DNA of 51,269 nucleotides from sequence record PZ445518.1; one strand, given 5' to 3'. The notes under the pieces were generated by a model. The model saw nothing but the letters and a program-made list of their open reading frames with translations, did not search any database and was not told the origin of the DNA. This document shows positions 30,813 to 39,314 of the stretch, piece after piece (position 1 is the first letter of the stretch; every line of letters starts with the position of its first letter). The position numbers and the translations under genes are program-made. Source of the DNA: a phage.

Positions 30813-31541
30813 AAAATGGCTAAAGATATTTTAGATAAAGACACCCATGACGCATTTGTTAGCTTTGAGCAGTTGGAGAGAGAAACGTTTATAGGAAATG
30901 CTCTTGCAACTGGAGGCCATTACCAGGCAGTAAAGCCAAATCAATATTATAAGGTAAGCGGCAACCGATACGCTGGAAGCACTACGCCGGACGTTGTGCG
31001 CGATATGTGGAGCACACCTCAAGAGATCGTGGAGTGGATGGAATCAGAATTTGGCGAATACGATCTCGACGCGGCAGCAAGCCAGGAAAACGCAGTTTGC
31101 GAGAAGTTCTATAGCAAGGAAACAAACTGCTTAAAGCGTTGGTGGGGTAGCAACAAGCACGTATGGCTTAACCCGCCGTACAGCAACCCAACTCCATTTA
31201 TCAAGAAAGCAATTGAGCAAATGGAGCACAACAACCAAATTGATGTTTTGTTGCCATCCGACAACTCTACAGCATGGTTTTATGAGGCGCAGAAAAACGC
31301 GGCTGAAATCATCTGGATCACTGGCGAGGTTTACGAAGAGGGGGGAGTGGAATATTCCCGCACCGGAAGAATCGCCTTTGTGTCTGGATTGACTGGCGAG
31401 CCTGTACAGGGCAACAATAAGGGAAGCGTGATTTTTGTCATGCGCAAACTTAAAGAAGGCGAGGAGCAGAAAACGCGATACGTTAAGATCAGCGATATTT
31501 GCCCCTCTGTAACCGAACGCCGCGCGCGCAAACGGAGCTAA
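30813..31541 (+). CDS. dam: DNA N6-adenine methyltransferase
   Basis: NPPY catalytic motif (WLNPPYS) preceded by DLDAAAS SAM-binding-like block; start 30813 or 30819. Confidence 0.75.
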   Translation, partial: KMAKDILDKDTHDAFVSFEQLERETFIGNALATGGHYQAVKPNQYYKVSGNRYAGSTTPDVVRDMWSTPQEIVEWMESEFGEYDLDAAASQENAVCEKFYSKETNCLKRWWGSNKHVWLNPPYSNPTPFIKKAIEQMEHNNQIDVLLPSDNSTAWFYEAQKNAAEIIWITGEVYEEGGVEYSRTGRIAFVSGLTGEPVQGNNKGSVIFVMRKLKEGEEQKTRYVKISDICPSVTERRARKRS

Positions 31542-37230: not shown

Positions 37231-37498
37231 TCCGCTCTATTGCAACCAGAAGTCGATCAGGCTGGCGGTCGCTGTAGCATTCTCCTGTAATCCCATCCTT
37301 AAACGTAAAGTAAAGCGCCTTATGATATGAAAAACCAATCAGCCAACCTACCGCCGTTTTTTTGATGGGCCTGACTATATCGCCAGGCTTGAAGGTTTTT
37401 GTTGCTGAATGAGTCACCTTATAGCGATATTCAGCCTTGATCATAAGGCTTCTCGCTTCCGTGGTTTTTGTGGAATCCGTACTTTTTCCAAATGGCAT
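37223..37498 (-). CDS. hypothetical protein
   Basis: Stop TAG embedded in conserved element; start uncertain (overlaps HNH gene end). Confidence 0.35.
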   Translation of the reverse strand: MPFGKSTDSTKTTEARSLMIKAEYRYKVTHSATKTFKPGDIVRPIKKTAVGWLIGFSYHKALYFTFKDGITGECYSDRQPDRLLVAIERIK

Positions 37499-37952
37499 CT
37501 CTTGATGCTACAGCGCTATCAATTGATGCATGATAACCACCAGAAATACACCTGCCATCAACAGTTACTTGTACGCACCATTTAGACACCCTCTTATTCC
37601 ACATCACGCCAGTATAACCAGATTTATTTGTCGATCTCCTTGTGTGGTTTTGTGAGTTTTGTTTTCTTGTGACAAGCCGGAGGTTTTCGATTCTATTGTC
37701 ATCTCTTATGTGATTCACGTGATCTATCTCCATTCCTTTTGGTATTGTTTTTCCATGCATCCACCAAACAATCCAATGCGCCGGATACTCTCTGCCACCA
37801 ATACCTATACGTCTATATCCGTTTTTAGTTATATAACCTGCCTCATCGCCAATTTTTGCCCGTCTTCCTGATGGGCTTTTCCATAATAGACGACCATTTT
37901 CATATATAAATAAATTTAGAAGTACTTGCCTTGAAATTCCGCTATTGCACAT
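37431..37952 (-). CDS. HNH homing endonuclease with AP2 DNA-binding domain
   Basis: HNH motif EIDHVNHIRDDNRIENL...N; AP2-like SGYTGVMWNKRVSKWCVQV...GGYHAS; start overlaps upstream gene end. Confidence 0.75.
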   Translation of the reverse strand: MCNSGISRQVLLNLFIYENGRLLWKSPSGRRAKIGDEAGYITKNGYRRIGIGGREYPAHWIVWWMHGKTIPKGMEIDHVNHIRDDNRIENLRLVTRKQNSQNHTRRSTNKSGYTGVMWNKRVSKWCVQVTVDGRCISGGYHASIDSAVASRDAIWKKYGFHKNHGSEKPYDQG

Positions 37953-38143
37953 TTAAATCCCACCTCGCATCTTTCAAGAGTCCATTGCTCACCTTGAGCA
38001 TCAACAACGTAACCAGCTACAGCGCCTAAAACCCTTCCCATAATTATCTCATAGCGTTTCCCTTCCTTAAAATGCTGACCTGGCTTTACGCTGTTCATGT
38101 GGTGGTAAACTTTTGAGCATTTTATTGTTCTCTTCTTTGCCAT
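37916..38143 (-). CDS. hypothetical protein
   Basis: 75-aa ORF with AAGGAG RBS downstream of promoter cassette. Confidence 0.45.
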   Translation of the reverse strand: MAKKRTIKCSKVYHHMNSVKPGQHFKEGKRYEIIMGRVLGAVAGYVVDAQGEQWTLERCEVGFKCAIAEFQGKYF

Positions 38144-38174: not shown

Positions 38175-38220
38175 ATTATGCCAGGTTTTTACACCTGGCT
38201 TTTAACAAAAAGTGCTATTT
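38175..38220 (-). promoter_or_regulatory. conserved-element promoter cassette (-10 CATAAT)
   Basis: Minus strand: AAATAGCACTTTTTGTTAAAA, 19 nt hairpin GCCAGGT..ACCTGGC, CATAAT, leader CACCGAAACGAAAGGAG. Confidence 0.55.
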
Positions 38221-38925
38221 TGAGTTTGACTCAAATACGGCGCGAGCAAATCCGCGCGGAGTGAGGGAGCGGATCATCTTTGTGCGTGATGAATTGCCGC
38301 CAGTTTTGGCCCAGCCTGGATTATCTTTGTCTTTCTCTTTCGGCAGGATTAAAGCGCGTGGAGGAATAACAAAGCCGTTGCCAGTCCAGAGGCATGTTTT
38401 CTTAAAGTAGCGATCCCGCGCCGGAATAATATCAGGGAAGTCGGGATGTTTATCATCTTCCGGCAGATAGCCAGCGTAATCGCACGGATGGAACGTATAA
38501 TCAGGCTTACGCCATAACGTTGACAACTTGCCAACCGGATTTTCGATCATGTAAGGAACACCGAAATAATCAGCTATATCAGCCGCGATTCTGCAAGTGT
38601 CGGCGGCCTCATCCTGGAACGATGGATTCTCAAGGCGTTTTTTGGCCCAATGGCGAGATCCGCTATTTGCAAGGTCGGTGCAAGGAGGGAACGCCATAAT
38701 AAAATCAGGATTGCCCCACTCATTATTGATTGCCTTAACATAAAAAGCATCATCAATCCAGACGTTAACGTATTCGATATTCTCATGCTGTATGCGCACT
38801 GACTGGTAATCACCGTGATCGCCGCCGTCAGCATTAAAGCAAATGCACTTATATCCATTATCAGCCCAATCTTTAACGGCTTTACCAGATCCATCAAATA
38901 GGGAGAATATTAAACCTTTATACAT
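38215..38925 (-). CDS. SAM-dependent DNA methyltransferase-like protein (C5-cytosine methyltransferase-type motifs)
   Basis: Ordered motifs FDGSG (motif I-like), FPPC (PC motif), IENPVG (ENV motif); only ~236 aa; stop TAG inside conserved element. Confidence 0.45.
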   Translation of the reverse strand: MYKGLIFSLFDGSGKAVKDWADNGYKCICFNADGGDHGDYQSVRIQHENIEYVNVWIDDAFYVKAINNEWGNPDFIMAFPPCTDLANSGSRHWAKKRLENPSFQDEAADTCRIAADIADYFGVPYMIENPVGKLSTLWRKPDYTFHPCDYAGYLPEDDKHPDFPDIIPARDRYFKKTCLWTGNGFVIPPRALILPKEKDKDNPGWAKTGGNSSRTKMIRSLTPRGFARAVFESNSK

Positions 38926-38935
38926 CGTCATTACC

Positions 38936-39160
38936 TCAAAACGGAAAACAGCGCGGACAACCAGGATCGAAATCGCATCCACAATCATTAACAATCATAG
39001 TGGGATCTGCAAATATTGCGCTTGATTCAAGATCCATATCCATATCACCTAAAGCCTCATCAAGACTCTTAATTTTATATGCCACTTCAAGCGCCGCCTC
39101 TTTATTTAGTCCGGCATCTTCTGCCATTTGAAGGCGCTCAAAAAATCCTTCTTGACTCAT
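38936..39160 (-). CDS. hypothetical protein (acidic, Cys-rich C-terminus)
   Basis: 74-aa ORF; C-terminal CGCDFDPGCPRC. Confidence 0.45.
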   Translation of the reverse strand: MSQEGFFERLQMAEDAGLNKEAALEVAYKIKSLDEALGDMDMDLESSAIFADPTMIVNDCGCDFDPGCPRCFPF

Positions 39161-39273: not shown

Positions 39274-39314
39274 TTCCACCTCATTTAAAAGGCGGCAAAA
39301 CGCCGCCATATTAA

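What the first reader, a model, noticed from the sequence alone, without database searches (positions are those of the whole stretch)
38215..38925. Short C5-cytosine-methyltransferase-like protein in addition to Dam
This ~236-aa product carries, in canonical order, an FxGxG-like SAM motif (FDGSG), a Pro-Cys dipeptide (FPPC) and an ENV motif (IENPVG), as in DNA C5-cytosine methyltransferases. It is much shorter than typical enzymes of that family and lacks an obvious target recognition domain. Together with the NPPY Dam enzyme (30813..31541) this suggests the genome may carry two DNA modifications as anti-restriction measures, or that the protein has a non-canonical role.
Basis: partly seen in the sequence, partly recalled or inferred. 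Interest (0 to 1): 0.5.

Follow-up and report, generated by a model that had tools for sequence, protein, structure and literature searches.

The report
Short phage cytosine methyltransferase, already known
This gene of the T1-like phage JK16 encodes a compact DNA cytosine-5 methyltransferase that is already annotated, and an 89%-identical counterpart in phage KarlJaspers has been reported to make 5-methylcytosine and to trigger the bacterial retron Ec86 defence, so the finding is real but not new.

Summary
On the minus strand, 38215..38925 is a 236-aa ORF with FDGSG (aa 10-14), FPPC (79-82) and IENPVG (127-132) in canonical C5-methyltransferase order. That ordered pattern occurs once in the window and never in 200 shuffles.

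The window is Shigella phage JK16 (Drexlerviridae). The gene is already annotated there as Dcm / DNA methyltransferase.

Pfam and NCBIfam do not match it. Three results still place it among C5-MTases:
- PHROG 757 matches at E 1e-84.
- A confident AlphaFold model (pLDDT 90.5) has C5-MTases, DNMT3B first, as its best fold matches.
- The catalytic Cys82 and Glu128 are invariant in 75 diverged relatives.

There is no separate target-recognition domain. Only a variable 23-residue loop sits where one would be.

Two relatives have experimental support:
- KarlJaspers Dcm-like protein (89% identical, no gaps): a strain of that phage supplied the 711-bp dcm reported to put 5mC on retron Ec86 msDNA and activate that defence. 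The same residues, C82/E128/K175/K176, were mutated there.
- Pantoea phage AAS23 gp52 (60% identical): the virion DNA resists EcoRII.

Verdict: an orphan phage C5-MTase that accompanies the phage Dam, and it is already known. The exact recognition site, and how the enzyme reads DNA without a recognition domain, remain open.

The parts
38215..38925 (-). Dcm-like orphan DNA cytosine-5 methyltransferase gene (236 aa plus TAG stop). It is JK16 H1N78_gp19 / YP_009900904.1.
   Evidence: ORF and translation. 100% match to the JK16 records, annotated Dcm / DNA methyltransferase. PHROG 757 at E 1.4e-84. AF2 pLDDT 90.5 with C5-MTase fold matches. 89% identical to KarlJaspers bas06_0055.
38934..38937 (-). 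Shine-Dalgarno GAGG, 9-12 nt upstream of the ATG.
   Evidence: Sequence. Conserved in KarlJaspers and, as AAGG, in AAS23. Two retron-escape mutants of phage K42 carry a C-to-A change 9 bp upstream of the dcm start codon. In KarlJaspers (a relative of K42; the K42 sequence itself was not available) and in JK16 that position falls in this GAGG on the coding strand (inference).
38884..38898 (-). Motif I, FDGSG (aa 10-14), the SAM-binding loop after strand beta-1.
   Evidence: DGSG is invariant in 35 close relatives. It aligns with motif I of DNMT3B.
38680..38691 (-). Motif IV, FPPC (aa 79-82), with the catalytic nucleophile Cys82.
   Evidence: C82 is invariant in 75 diverged relatives. It aligns with the PC of DNMT3B and of E. 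coli Dcm. C82 is one of the residues mutated in the inactive K42 Dcm.
38530..38547 (-). Motif VI, IENPVG (aa 127-132). It is an ENP variant of the ENV motif, with Glu128.
   Evidence: E128 is invariant, and N129 and P130 are conserved at 90% or more. It lies at the end of strand 125-130 in the model. E128 was mutated in the inactive K42 Dcm.
38398..38481 (-). DYAGY element (aa 149-153), a family-specific conserved segment of about 21 residues (aa 154-174), and Lys175-Lys176 at the position of motif VIII (QxRxR).
   Evidence: P147, D171, Y173 and K175 are invariant or conserved at 90% or more. K175 and K176 were mutated in the inactive K42 Dcm. The correspondence to canonical motifs VII/VIII is my reading of the sequence and of the model's secondary structure, so it is inference.
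38293..38361 (-). Variable 23-residue loop (aa 189-211) at the place where canonical C5-MTases carry the target recognition domain.
   Evidence: Lowest conservation of any segment: top-residue frequency 0.35 in A2. Lowest model confidence: the 10-residue block aa 201-210 has pLDDT 60.
38224..38280 (-). Motif IX/X region, KMIRSLTPRGFARAVFESN (aa 216-234).
   Evidence: R219, S220, P223 and G225 are conserved at 90% or more. BLASTP lines RSLTPRGFARAV up with RRLTPRECARLM of E. coli Dcm. Helices 213-219 and 224-234 in the model.
30816..31541 (+). Companion phage Dam (N6-adenine methyltransferase, NPPY at aa 119). It is a functional partner, not physically linked to the dcm-like gene.
   Evidence: Pfam PF05869 at E 1.5e-61. 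Translation. Annotated as H1N78_gp05.

Best explanation
The ORF encodes an active, orphan (no partner nuclease), SAM-dependent DNA cytosine-5 methyltransferase. It belongs to a large, phage-borne, minimal-size family.

Mechanism (inferred from the C5-MTase paradigm):
- Motif I and the Rossmann core bind SAM.
- Cys82 of the FPPC loop attacks C6 of a flipped-out cytosine.
- Glu128 of ENP contacts N3/N4 of that cytosine.
- Lys175 and Lys176 replace the motif VIII arginines.
- The methyl group is transferred to C5.

It is made from the leftward (minus-strand) gene block. It methylates replicating phage DNA, most likely at Dcm-type CCWGG sites. Together with the phage Dam (GATC), this gives progeny DNA full methylation at the two short palindromes that the genome does not avoid, protecting it from methylation-sensitive restriction such as EcoRII.

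The same activity is a liability. In hosts that carry retron Ec86 (Eco1), methylation of the msDNA stem-loop activates the retron effector and aborts infection.

What is shown and what is inferred:
- Shown here: the ORF, the motifs, their conservation, the fold, the synteny and the identity to the studied proteins.
- Shown in the literature for relatives: 5mC formation, the dead mutant, retron triggering and EcoRII resistance.
- Inferred: that the JK16 protein behaves the same way, the CCWGG site, and the anti-restriction benefit.
For: Identity and annotation:
- The window is 100% identical to Shigella phage JK16. The gene is annotated Dcm / DNA methyltransferase.
- The exact protein is YP_009900904.1. 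It sits in the same 90%-identity cluster as KarlJaspers 'Dcm-like C5 cytosine methyltransferase' QXV82308.1.

Enzyme class:
- PHROG 757 at E 1.4e-84.
- AF2 model with pLDDT 90.5 and pTM 0.89.
- Foldseek against PDB: the first 50 matches listed are all DNMT3A/3B/3C methyltransferase entries, best E 2.9e-8.
- C82 and E128 are invariant across 75 relatives of 33-57% identity.
- A natural fusion of this domain to a D12-class adenine DNA methyltransferase exists, P0246.

Orthology to the studied protein:
- 89% identity over 236 aa with 0 gaps to KarlJaspers bas06_0055, which is also 711 bp and in a similar position, a few small ORFs from the DUF3987-type helicase gene.
- Residues 121-191 are identical between the two.
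- C82, E128, K175 and K176 are all present.

Experiments on relatives:
- Phage K42, a KarlJaspers strain: mutants escaping retron Ec86 all hit the 711-bp dcm. Dcm expression is toxic only when the retron is present. LC-MS shows raised 5mC on msDNA with wild-type Dcm but not with the C82A/E128A/K175A/K176A mutant. Changing the msDNA CCTGG abolishes defence. 34 of 35 retron-sensitive phages encode Dcm (bioRxiv 10.1101/2023.08.16.553469; cited as published in Cell Rep 2024;43:114857).
- Pantoea phage AAS23: gp52 is 60% identical, and virion DNA resists EcoRII and MboI (PMC8004638).

Orphan status:
- No nuclease partner is annotated beside the gene in JK16, KarlJaspers, AAS23 or a lambdoid-like prophage region on a 213-kb E. 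coli assembly contig.

Genome signature:
- CCWGG is 133 observed against 126 expected, and GATC is 306 against 306. Many 6-bp palindromes are nearly absent, for example GAATTC 1 against 12, GATATC 0 against 14 and CTGCAG 0 against 12.
Against: - No curated profile recognises the protein. Pfam and NCBIfam give 0 hits even at E up to 10. Only 5 of 75 relatives touch PF00145, best E 0.004.
- Sequence matches to PDB C5-MTases are not significant, E 0.1-0.6.
- There is no TRD, and there is no detectable similarity to E. coli Dcm outside motifs IV and IX (BLASTP E 0.68, hhalign probability 1.3%). CCWGG specificity therefore cannot be inferred by homology.
- The retron work assumed that site from E. 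coli Dcm and was done in dcm+ MG1655, where the host enzyme does not trigger the retron.
- The msDNA 'site' is CCTGG opposite CAAGG, with an unpaired G.
- AAS23's host could have contributed to the EcoRII resistance.
- The BASEL study found no simple link between methyltransferase genes and restriction resistance in Drexlerviridae (PMC8594841).
- Nothing was measured on JK16 itself.
Confidence: 0.85

Rival explanations
1. It is an active C5 DNA methyltransferase, but its specificity is not that of E. coli Dcm. Possibilities include a shorter or relaxed site, the outer cytosine of CCWGG, or tolerance of mismatched, hairpin or single-stranded DNA. Recognition would come from the catalytic loop, the conserved aa 147-176 segment and possibly dimerisation as in DNMT3, not from a TRD.
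For: - No TRD, only a 23-residue variable loop.
- No similarity to the recognition part of E. coli Dcm.
- The best fold match is DNMT3B/3A. From general knowledge, those enzymes read a 2-bp site with a very small recognition loop and act as dimers.
- Host Dcm in MG1655 does not activate retron Ec86, whereas the phage enzyme does.
- The msDNA target is a mismatched half-site, not duplex CCWGG.
- The authors mention toxicity of Dcm itself.
Against: - AAS23 virion DNA is EcoRII-resistant while other enzymes cut as expected, according to the authors.
- Mutating either C of the msDNA CCTGG abolishes retron defence.
- CCWGG is not avoided in the three carrier genomes examined (O/E 1.02-1.06), against 0.82 in T1, which lacks the gene. 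This is weak evidence, with n = 4.
- Over-expression from pBAD, compared with single-copy host dcm, could explain the host paradox without any difference in specificity.
Confidence: 0.3
2. The protein has the C5-MTase fold but a different primary substrate or chemistry. It could be an RNA/tRNA m5C methyltransferase like DNMT2, it could transfer a group other than methyl, or it could act as a catalytically silent DNA-binding protein.
For: - Curated DNA-methylase profiles do not match.
Against: - LC-MS detected 5mC on DNA after expression of the 89%-identical protein, and the active-site mutant abolished it.
- Virion DNA of a carrier phage resists EcoRII.
- The catalytic Cys and Glu are invariant, which argues against a silent protein.
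- A natural fusion to a DNA adenine methyltransferase exists.
Confidence: 0.04
3. The motif order is a coincidence in an unrelated small phage protein.
For: - Each motif is only 2-5 residues long.
- Pfam and NCBIfam find nothing.
Against: - The pattern is unique in the window and absent from 200 shuffles.
- The motif residues are the invariant columns of a family with 2105 cluster representatives.
- They sit at the expected places of a confident Rossmann methyltransferase model.
Confidence: 0.01

Closest known systems
Phage K42 / KarlJaspers (Bas06) 'Dcm', the trigger of retron Ec86 (Eco1). Wang et al., bioRxiv 10.1101/2023.08.16.553469; cited as Cell Rep 2024;43:114857.
   Same: - Same gene length (711 bp).
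- A similar position, a few small ORFs from the DUF3987-type helicase gene.
- 89% identity without gaps to KarlJaspers bas06_0055.
- Identical C82, E128, K175 and K176.
- Conserved GAGG ribosome-binding site.
- Both proteins are in one 90%-identity cluster.
   Different: - A different phage genus: JK16 is a Warwickvirus and KarlJaspers is a Hanrivervirus.
- 25 substitutions, mostly in aa 23-118.
- I compared with KarlJaspers Bas06, not with the K42 sequence itself. The authors report 95.4% genome identity between the two.
- Nothing was measured on JK16.
Pantoea phage vB_PagS_AAS23 gp52 'DNA cytosine methyltransferase' (PMC8004638).
   Same: - 60% identical over the full length.
- 235 aa.
- The same gene neighbourhood.
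- Also paired with a PF05869-type Dam.
- The authors report HHpred 99.7% to a C5-MTase structure, and EcoRII- and MboI-resistant virion DNA.
   Different: - A different host and genus.
- No mutant or heterologous expression was done, so a host contribution is not excluded.
E. coli Dcm (EcoDcm, b1961; CCWGG, 472 aa).
   Same: - The same reaction class.
- Motif IV (PC) and motif IX (R-LTPR-ARL) line up.
- Possibly the same target site, according to the literature.
   Different: - Half the size.
- No TRD.
- No significant sequence similarity (BLASTP E 0.68, hhalign probability 1.3%).
- No adjacent vsr gene.
- 'Dcm' is a functional label here, not orthology.
Catalytic domains of eukaryotic DNMT3A/DNMT3B.
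   Same: - The only PDB sequences that align through motifs I-IV.
- From general knowledge, they too have only a small recognition loop.
   Different: - Sequence similarity is not significant (E 0.1-0.6).
- TM-score is only about 0.5.
- There are no regulatory domains or partners.
- Oligomeric state is unknown.
Canonical bacterial type II C5-MTases (M.HhaI, M.HaeIII; Pfam PF00145).
   Same: - Motif order I, IV, VI, IX/X.
- Rossmann core.
   Different: - Below the Pfam threshold.
- ENP instead of ENV.
- KK instead of QxRxR.
- A family-specific conserved segment at aa 154-174.
- A 23-residue loop instead of a TRD, which in canonical enzymes is roughly 80 or more residues (that size is from general knowledge).
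- No cognate restriction enzyme.

Membership tests
DNA cytosine-5 methyltransferases (C5-MTase superfamily) | Motif I (FxGxG) SAM-binding loop after the first beta-strand. | tested here: met
   FDGSG at aa 10-14, following strand 5-9 of the model. DGSG is invariant in 35 close relatives. It aligns with DNMT3B motif I.
DNA cytosine-5 methyltransferases (C5-MTase superfamily) | Motif IV Pro-Cys with the catalytic cysteine. | tested here: met
   FPPC at aa 79-82. C82 is invariant in 75 diverged relatives. It aligns with the PC of DNMT3B and of E. coli Dcm.
DNA cytosine-5 methyltransferases (C5-MTase superfamily) | Motif VI Glu-Asn-Val. | tested here: met
   Present as the variant E128-N129-P130-V131. 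E128 is invariant, and N129 and P130 are conserved at 90% or more.
DNA cytosine-5 methyltransferases (C5-MTase superfamily) | Motif VIII QxRxR. | tested here: not met
   No QxRxR is present. The corresponding strand starts with K175-K176 (KKTCLW), and K175 is conserved at 90% or more. The functional equivalence is inferred, and it was assumed by Wang et al..
DNA cytosine-5 methyltransferases (C5-MTase superfamily) | A target recognition domain between motifs VIII and IX. | tested here: not met
   Only aa 189-211 (23 residues) lie there. They are variable and of low confidence.
DNA cytosine-5 methyltransferases (C5-MTase superfamily) | Class I methyltransferase fold that is closest to solved C5-MTases. 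| tested here: met
   [not shown]
DNA cytosine-5 methyltransferases (C5-MTase superfamily) | Formation of 5-methylcytosine in DNA. | not testable with these tools
   Reported for the 89%-identical K42 enzyme by LC-MS, with a dead mutant as control. Not measured for JK16.
Pfam PF00145 DNA_methylase | A score above the curated gathering threshold. | tested here: not met
   0 hits at E up to 10 for the window protein. Only 5 of 75 relatives hit weakly, best E 0.0039.
Orthologue of E. coli Dcm (EcoDcm, CCWGG, linked to vsr) | Significant full-length sequence similarity, including the recognition domain. | tested here: not met
   BLASTP E 0.68 and hhalign probability 1.3%. Only fragments of motifs IV and IX align.
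Orthologue of E. coli Dcm (EcoDcm, CCWGG, linked to vsr) | Methylation of the inner cytosine of CCWGG. | not testable with these tools
   All the evidence is indirect: EcoRII resistance of AAS23 DNA, the need for the CCTGG in msDNA, and CCWGG not being avoided in carrier genomes. The host-Dcm paradox is unresolved.
Phage Dcm-like minimal C5-MTase family (PHROG 757; retron Ec86 trigger) | Full-length match to the family profile and a size of about 230 aa. | tested here: met
   PHROG 757 at E 1.4e-84 over aa 2-235. 3030 homologues, the listed ones mostly 227-260 aa. 2105 cluster representatives. tblastn matches in 1499 of 50,697 phage records.
Phage Dcm-like minimal C5-MTase family (PHROG 757; retron Ec86 trigger) | The residues shown to be needed in K42 Dcm (C82, E128, K175, K176). 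| tested here: met
   All four are present at the same numbering. Alignment with KarlJaspers has 89% identity and no gaps.
Phage Dcm-like minimal C5-MTase family (PHROG 757; retron Ec86 trigger) | Activation of retron Ec86 during infection. | not testable with these tools
   Shown for phage K42 and inferred for 34 Dcm-encoding phages. JK16 has not been tested.
Orphan (solitary) methyltransferase | No cognate restriction endonuclease next to the gene. | tested here: met
   The neighbours are small hypothetical genes, an HNH homing-type endonuclease (PF13392) and a DUF3987 helicase. The same holds in KarlJaspers, AAS23 and a prophage.

The most novel reading that the evidence does not exclude
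The family may be a naturally minimal C5-MTase that reads DNA without any TRD. It would use its conserved aa 147-176 segment, and perhaps DNMT3-like dimerisation, instead. Its true specificity may then differ from host Dcm, for example a relaxed site, or tolerance of mismatches or hairpins. That would explain why it, and not host Dcm, fires retron Ec86 on a mismatched CCTGG/CAAGG half-site.
Probability: 0.25. Interest if true: 0.45.

Novelty: already known. Interest (0 to 1): 0.15.

Why it matters
For this window it matters little. The gene is annotated, the family is abundant (tblastn matches in about 3% of deposited phage genomes), and a near-identical protein has a published function.

It is useful for annotation in three ways:
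- Pfam and NCBIfam miss the family entirely.
- 'Dcm' is a functional nickname, not orthology with E. coli Dcm.
- Many gene calls use a wrong upstream TTG start.

Biologically, the gene marks JK16 as a phage that methylates its own DNA at both adenine and cytosine. It also predicts sensitivity to retron Ec86 (E. coli B and BL21 backgrounds), which is relevant when choosing propagation hosts.

The open point is how a 236-aa enzyme without a recognition domain selects its site, and whether that site is really CCWGG. That is a tractable biochemical question of moderate interest.

Tried and rejected
- Pfam and NCBIfam scans of the protein gave nothing, even at E up to 10. Scanning 75 relatives gave only 5 weak PF00145 hits.
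- Sequence searches of the PDB, with the single protein and with a profile, gave only non-significant DNMT3B matches over motifs I-IV.
- Profile-versus-sequence comparison with E. coli Dcm gave probability 1.3%. I therefore rejected orthology with host Dcm.
- The afdb50 fold library was not available.
- The published Cell Reports version is not held, so I relied on the preprint. One paper search failed on syntax and one returned nothing. A search for Drexlerviridae plus 5mC gave no methylome data for these phages.
- I tried to infer specificity from site avoidance. CCWGG has O/E 1.02-1.06 in three carrier phages and 0.82 in T1, which lacks the gene. With four genomes, shared ancestry and a dcm+ host, this is suggestive at most.
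- The striking CCSGG depletion in JK16 and KarlJaspers is absent in AAS23, so I rejected it as a signature of the enzyme.
- I considered RNA methylation, another transferred group, or an inactive protein, and rejected these on the published LC-MS and mutant data and on the invariant catalytic residues.
Full report
**1. What is at the coordinates**

The finding corresponds to a minus-strand ORF. It runs from ATG at 38925 to a TAG stop at 38215-38217, which is 711 bp and 236 aa.

- FDGSG at aa 10-14
- FPPC at aa 79-82
- IENPVG at aa 127-132

A regular expression for that ordered pattern hits only this ORF among all six-frame ORFs of at least 100 aa in the window. It hits nothing in 200 trinucleotide-block shuffles.

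A longer version of the ORF starting at TTG 38994 also exists, and many public gene calls use it (257-259 aa). Three things favour the ATG instead:
- Homologues start at the ATG.
- The longer form overlaps the upstream gene.
- A GAGG Shine-Dalgarno lies 9-12 nt upstream of the ATG (38934..38937) and is conserved in related phages.

**2. Where the window comes from**

The region is 100% identical to Shigella phage JK16 (MK962751 / NC_049814; Drexlerviridae, Tempevirinae, Warwickvirus). The ORF is annotated there as 'Dcm' in GenBank and as 'DNA methyltransferase' (H1N78_gp19, YP_009900904.1) in RefSeq.

The gene lies in a minus-strand block of small genes, a few ORFs from a DUF3987-type helicase gene.

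**3. Is it a C5 methyltransferase?**

Curated profile libraries do not say so. Pfam and NCBIfam return nothing even at E up to 10. Of 75 diverged relatives, only 5 touch PF00145, with a best E of 0.004. Sequence searches of the PDB give only non-significant DNMT3B alignments through motifs I-IV.

Other evidence is consistent and stronger:
- **Family profile.** PHROG 757 'DNA methyltransferase' matches at E 1.4e-84 over the whole protein.
- **Fold.** An AlphaFold2 model built on 35 homologues is confident (pLDDT 90.5, pTM 0.89). In Foldseek against the PDB, the first 50 matches listed are all DNMT3A/3B/3C methyltransferase entries, best E 2.9e-8.
- **Catalytic residues.** In an alignment of 75 relatives that are 33-57% identical to the window protein, Cys82 and Glu128 are invariant. 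F79, P80, N129, P130, K175, R219, S220 and P223 are conserved at 90% or more.
- **Natural fusion.** One relative, P0246, joins this domain to a D12-class adenine DNA methyltransferase.
- **Published profile comparison.** For the 60%-identical AAS23 protein, the authors report HHpred 99.7% probability to a Shigella C5-MTase structure (PMC8004638; identity).

**4. Anatomy**

Mapping the motifs on the model's secondary structure gives this layout:
- beta-1 plus motif I (aa 5-14)
- beta-4 plus the PC loop (aa 75-90)
- a long helix (aa 103-121)
- beta-5 plus ENP (aa 125-130)
- a short strand (aa 143-145)
- a DYAGY element (aa 149-153)
- a family-specific, well-conserved segment of about 21 residues (aa 154-174)
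- K175-K176 leading into strand TCLWTG (aa 177-182), at the place of motif VIII
- a 23-residue loop (aa 189-211)
- the motif IX/X helices (RSLTPRGFARAVF)

The loop at aa 189-211 occupies the TRD position. It is the most variable segment (top-residue frequency 0.35) and the least confident part of the model.

Family members are almost all 210-260 aa. The motif VII/VIII correspondence is my inference from sequence and model, not a superposition.

**5. What is already known about this protein family**

*Retron Ec86 work.* Wang et al. (bioRxiv 10.1101/2023.08.16.553469; cited by later papers as Cell Rep 2024;43:114857) selected mutants of phage 'KarlJaspers strain Hzau42' (K42) that escape retron Ec86. 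Their results:
- All four escapers disrupt a 711-bp dcm gene or its ribosome-binding site. [quoted passage not shown]
- Expressing Dcm is toxic only in the presence of the retron.
- msDNA purified after Dcm expression has high 5mC by LC-MS. With the C82A/E128A/K175A/K176A mutant or with empty vector it has low 5mC.
- Changing the CCTGG in the msDNA stem-loop abolishes defence.
- 34 of 35 retron-sensitive phages encode Dcm.

*Link to the window protein.* I fetched KarlJaspers Bas06 (MZ501090). Its bas06_0055, annotated 'Dcm-like C5 cytosine methyltransferase', is also 711 bp and sits a few small ORFs from the DUF3987-type helicase gene. It is 89% identical to the window protein with no gaps, and residues 121-191 are identical. 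C82, E128, K175 and K176 are all present in the window protein. Both proteins fall in one 90%-identity cluster. BASEL phage FritzSarasin carries a 99.2% identical copy.

*Independent evidence.* Pantoea phage AAS23 gp52 is 60% identical, and its virion DNA resists EcoRII and MboI.

*Anti-restriction role.* The BASEL paper notes that Dam and C5 methyltransferases are abundant in Drexlerviridae and were proposed to counter restriction. It found no simple correlation with restriction resistance (PMC8594841).

**6. Distribution**

- tblastn finds the family in 1499 of 50,697 deposited phage genomes (Escherichia, Klebsiella, Salmonella, Shigella, Vibrio and others). These include Dhillonvirus, Kagunavirus and rV5-like phages.
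- A profile search finds 2105 representatives of 50%-identity clusters.
- Phage T1 itself has no homologue (tblastn best E 0.44).
- A 60%-identical copy sits in a lambdoid-like prophage region on a 213-kb E. coli assembly contig, again close to a PF05869 Dam.
- No restriction endonuclease partner is annotated in any of these contexts, so the enzyme is an orphan.

**7. Most likely mechanism**

This is an orphan, SAM-dependent DNA C5-methyltransferase. It methylates replicating phage DNA, most likely at Dcm-type CCWGG sites, alongside the phage Dam at GATC.

The window's own composition fits this. GATC (306 observed, 306 expected) and CCWGG (133 observed, 126 expected) are not avoided. In contrast, 21 of the 64 six-base palindromes are absent, and the class as a whole stands at 0.64 of expectation.

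The known cost is that methylation of the msDNA stem-loop activates retron Ec86. I put 0.85 on 'active orphan DNA C5-MTase', and roughly 0.6 on 'CCWGG inner cytosine' as the site.

**8. What remains unsettled**

'Dcm' is a functional label, not orthology. E. coli Dcm (472 aa) shows no significant similarity, with BLASTP E 0.68 and hhalign probability 1.3%. Only motif IV and IX fragments align. The site therefore cannot be inferred by homology.

The retron experiments were done in dcm+ MG1655, yet the retron is quiet there and msDNA 5mC is low without the phage enzyme.

The Ec86 msDNA sequence matches 48 E. coli genomes exactly, including BLR(DE3), where it lies between the retron RT and effector genes. 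It folds with CCTGG opposite CAAGG, so that G22 is unpaired. The target is thus a mismatched half-site and not duplex CCWGG.

Two explanations are possible. Over-expression may explain the difference from host Dcm, or the phage enzyme may have a relaxed or different specificity. This is the only part of the finding with residual novelty, and it needs experiments.

**9. Verdict**

- Novelty: already known (annotated, with a published function for an 89%-identical relative).
- Interest is low.

Noticed in passing
window 37431..37952 (-), with 37916..38143 (-): An HNH endonuclease gene (PF13392, E 7e-18) lies two genes from the dcm-like gene, with only the 75-aa gp18 between them. Most close relatives cover only about 82% of this 4-kb region, in two pieces, which is consistent with the HNH gene being an insertion. 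The adjacent 75-aa gp18 matches only the C-terminal half of KarlJaspers bas06_0054 (128 aa). Elsewhere, HNH genes sit next to or inside the dcm-like gene: in JohannBuxtorf Bas84 the gene is in two pieces, and relative P0259 carries an HNH_2 domain. The locus looks like a homing-endonuclease hot spot.
   Followed up: partly
whole window: Six-base palindromes are strongly avoided. 21 of 64 are absent and the total observed/expected is 0.64, for example GAATTC 1 against 12, GATATC 0 against 14, CTGCAG 0 against 12 and RCCGGY 1 against 23.5. GATC (1.00) and CCWGG (1.06) are not avoided. CCSGG is depleted five-fold (4 against 22) in JK16 and in KarlJaspers, but not in AAS23 or T1.
   Followed up: partly
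L006 (phage T1, NC_005833), whole genome: The type phage T1 has the Dam gene but no homologue of this Dcm-like gene (tblastn best E 0.44). The gene is therefore accessory within Drexlerviridae. CCWGG observed/expected is 0.82 in T1, against 1.02-1.06 in three carrier phages.
   Followed up: partly
Ec86 msDNA, L009:3001-3086 (E. coli BLR(DE3)): The CCTGG said to be the methylation site in retron Ec86 msDNA pairs with CAAGG, leaving one G unpaired in the predicted hairpin. Host Dcm in MG1655 evidently does not trigger the retron. The exact substrate rule of the phage enzyme is therefore unexplained.
   Followed up: partly
P0246; BFVD entries A0A6J5SE15 and A0A6J5NPY6: The minimal C5-MTase domain also occurs fused to other domains. 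P0246 (563 aa) joins it to a D12-class adenine methyltransferase. It also occurs inside uncultured-phage proteins of 1100-1400 aa, one of them annotated with a helicase N-terminal domain.
   Followed up: no
L008:6494-8747 (E. coli assembly GCA_053566455.1): A 60%-identical copy lies in a lambdoid-like prophage region whose neighbours are ERF, SSB, NinG, RusA, an antiterminator, holin and lysozyme. It is two genes downstream of a PF05869 Dam. The Dam plus Dcm-like pairing is therefore not limited to virulent T1-like phages.
   Followed up: no
window 38926..38994 (-): Many public gene calls for this protein cluster are 257-259 aa because they start at an upstream TTG that overlaps the preceding gene. 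The 236-aa ATG start has the conserved GAGG ribosome-binding site.
   Followed up: yes
window 39291..39307 (both strands): A GC-rich hairpin, GGCGGCGTTTTGCCGCC, followed by a T-run on the minus strand, lies about 370 nt upstream of the dcm-like gene. It looks like a terminator. It may subdivide the leftward gene block.
   Followed up: no
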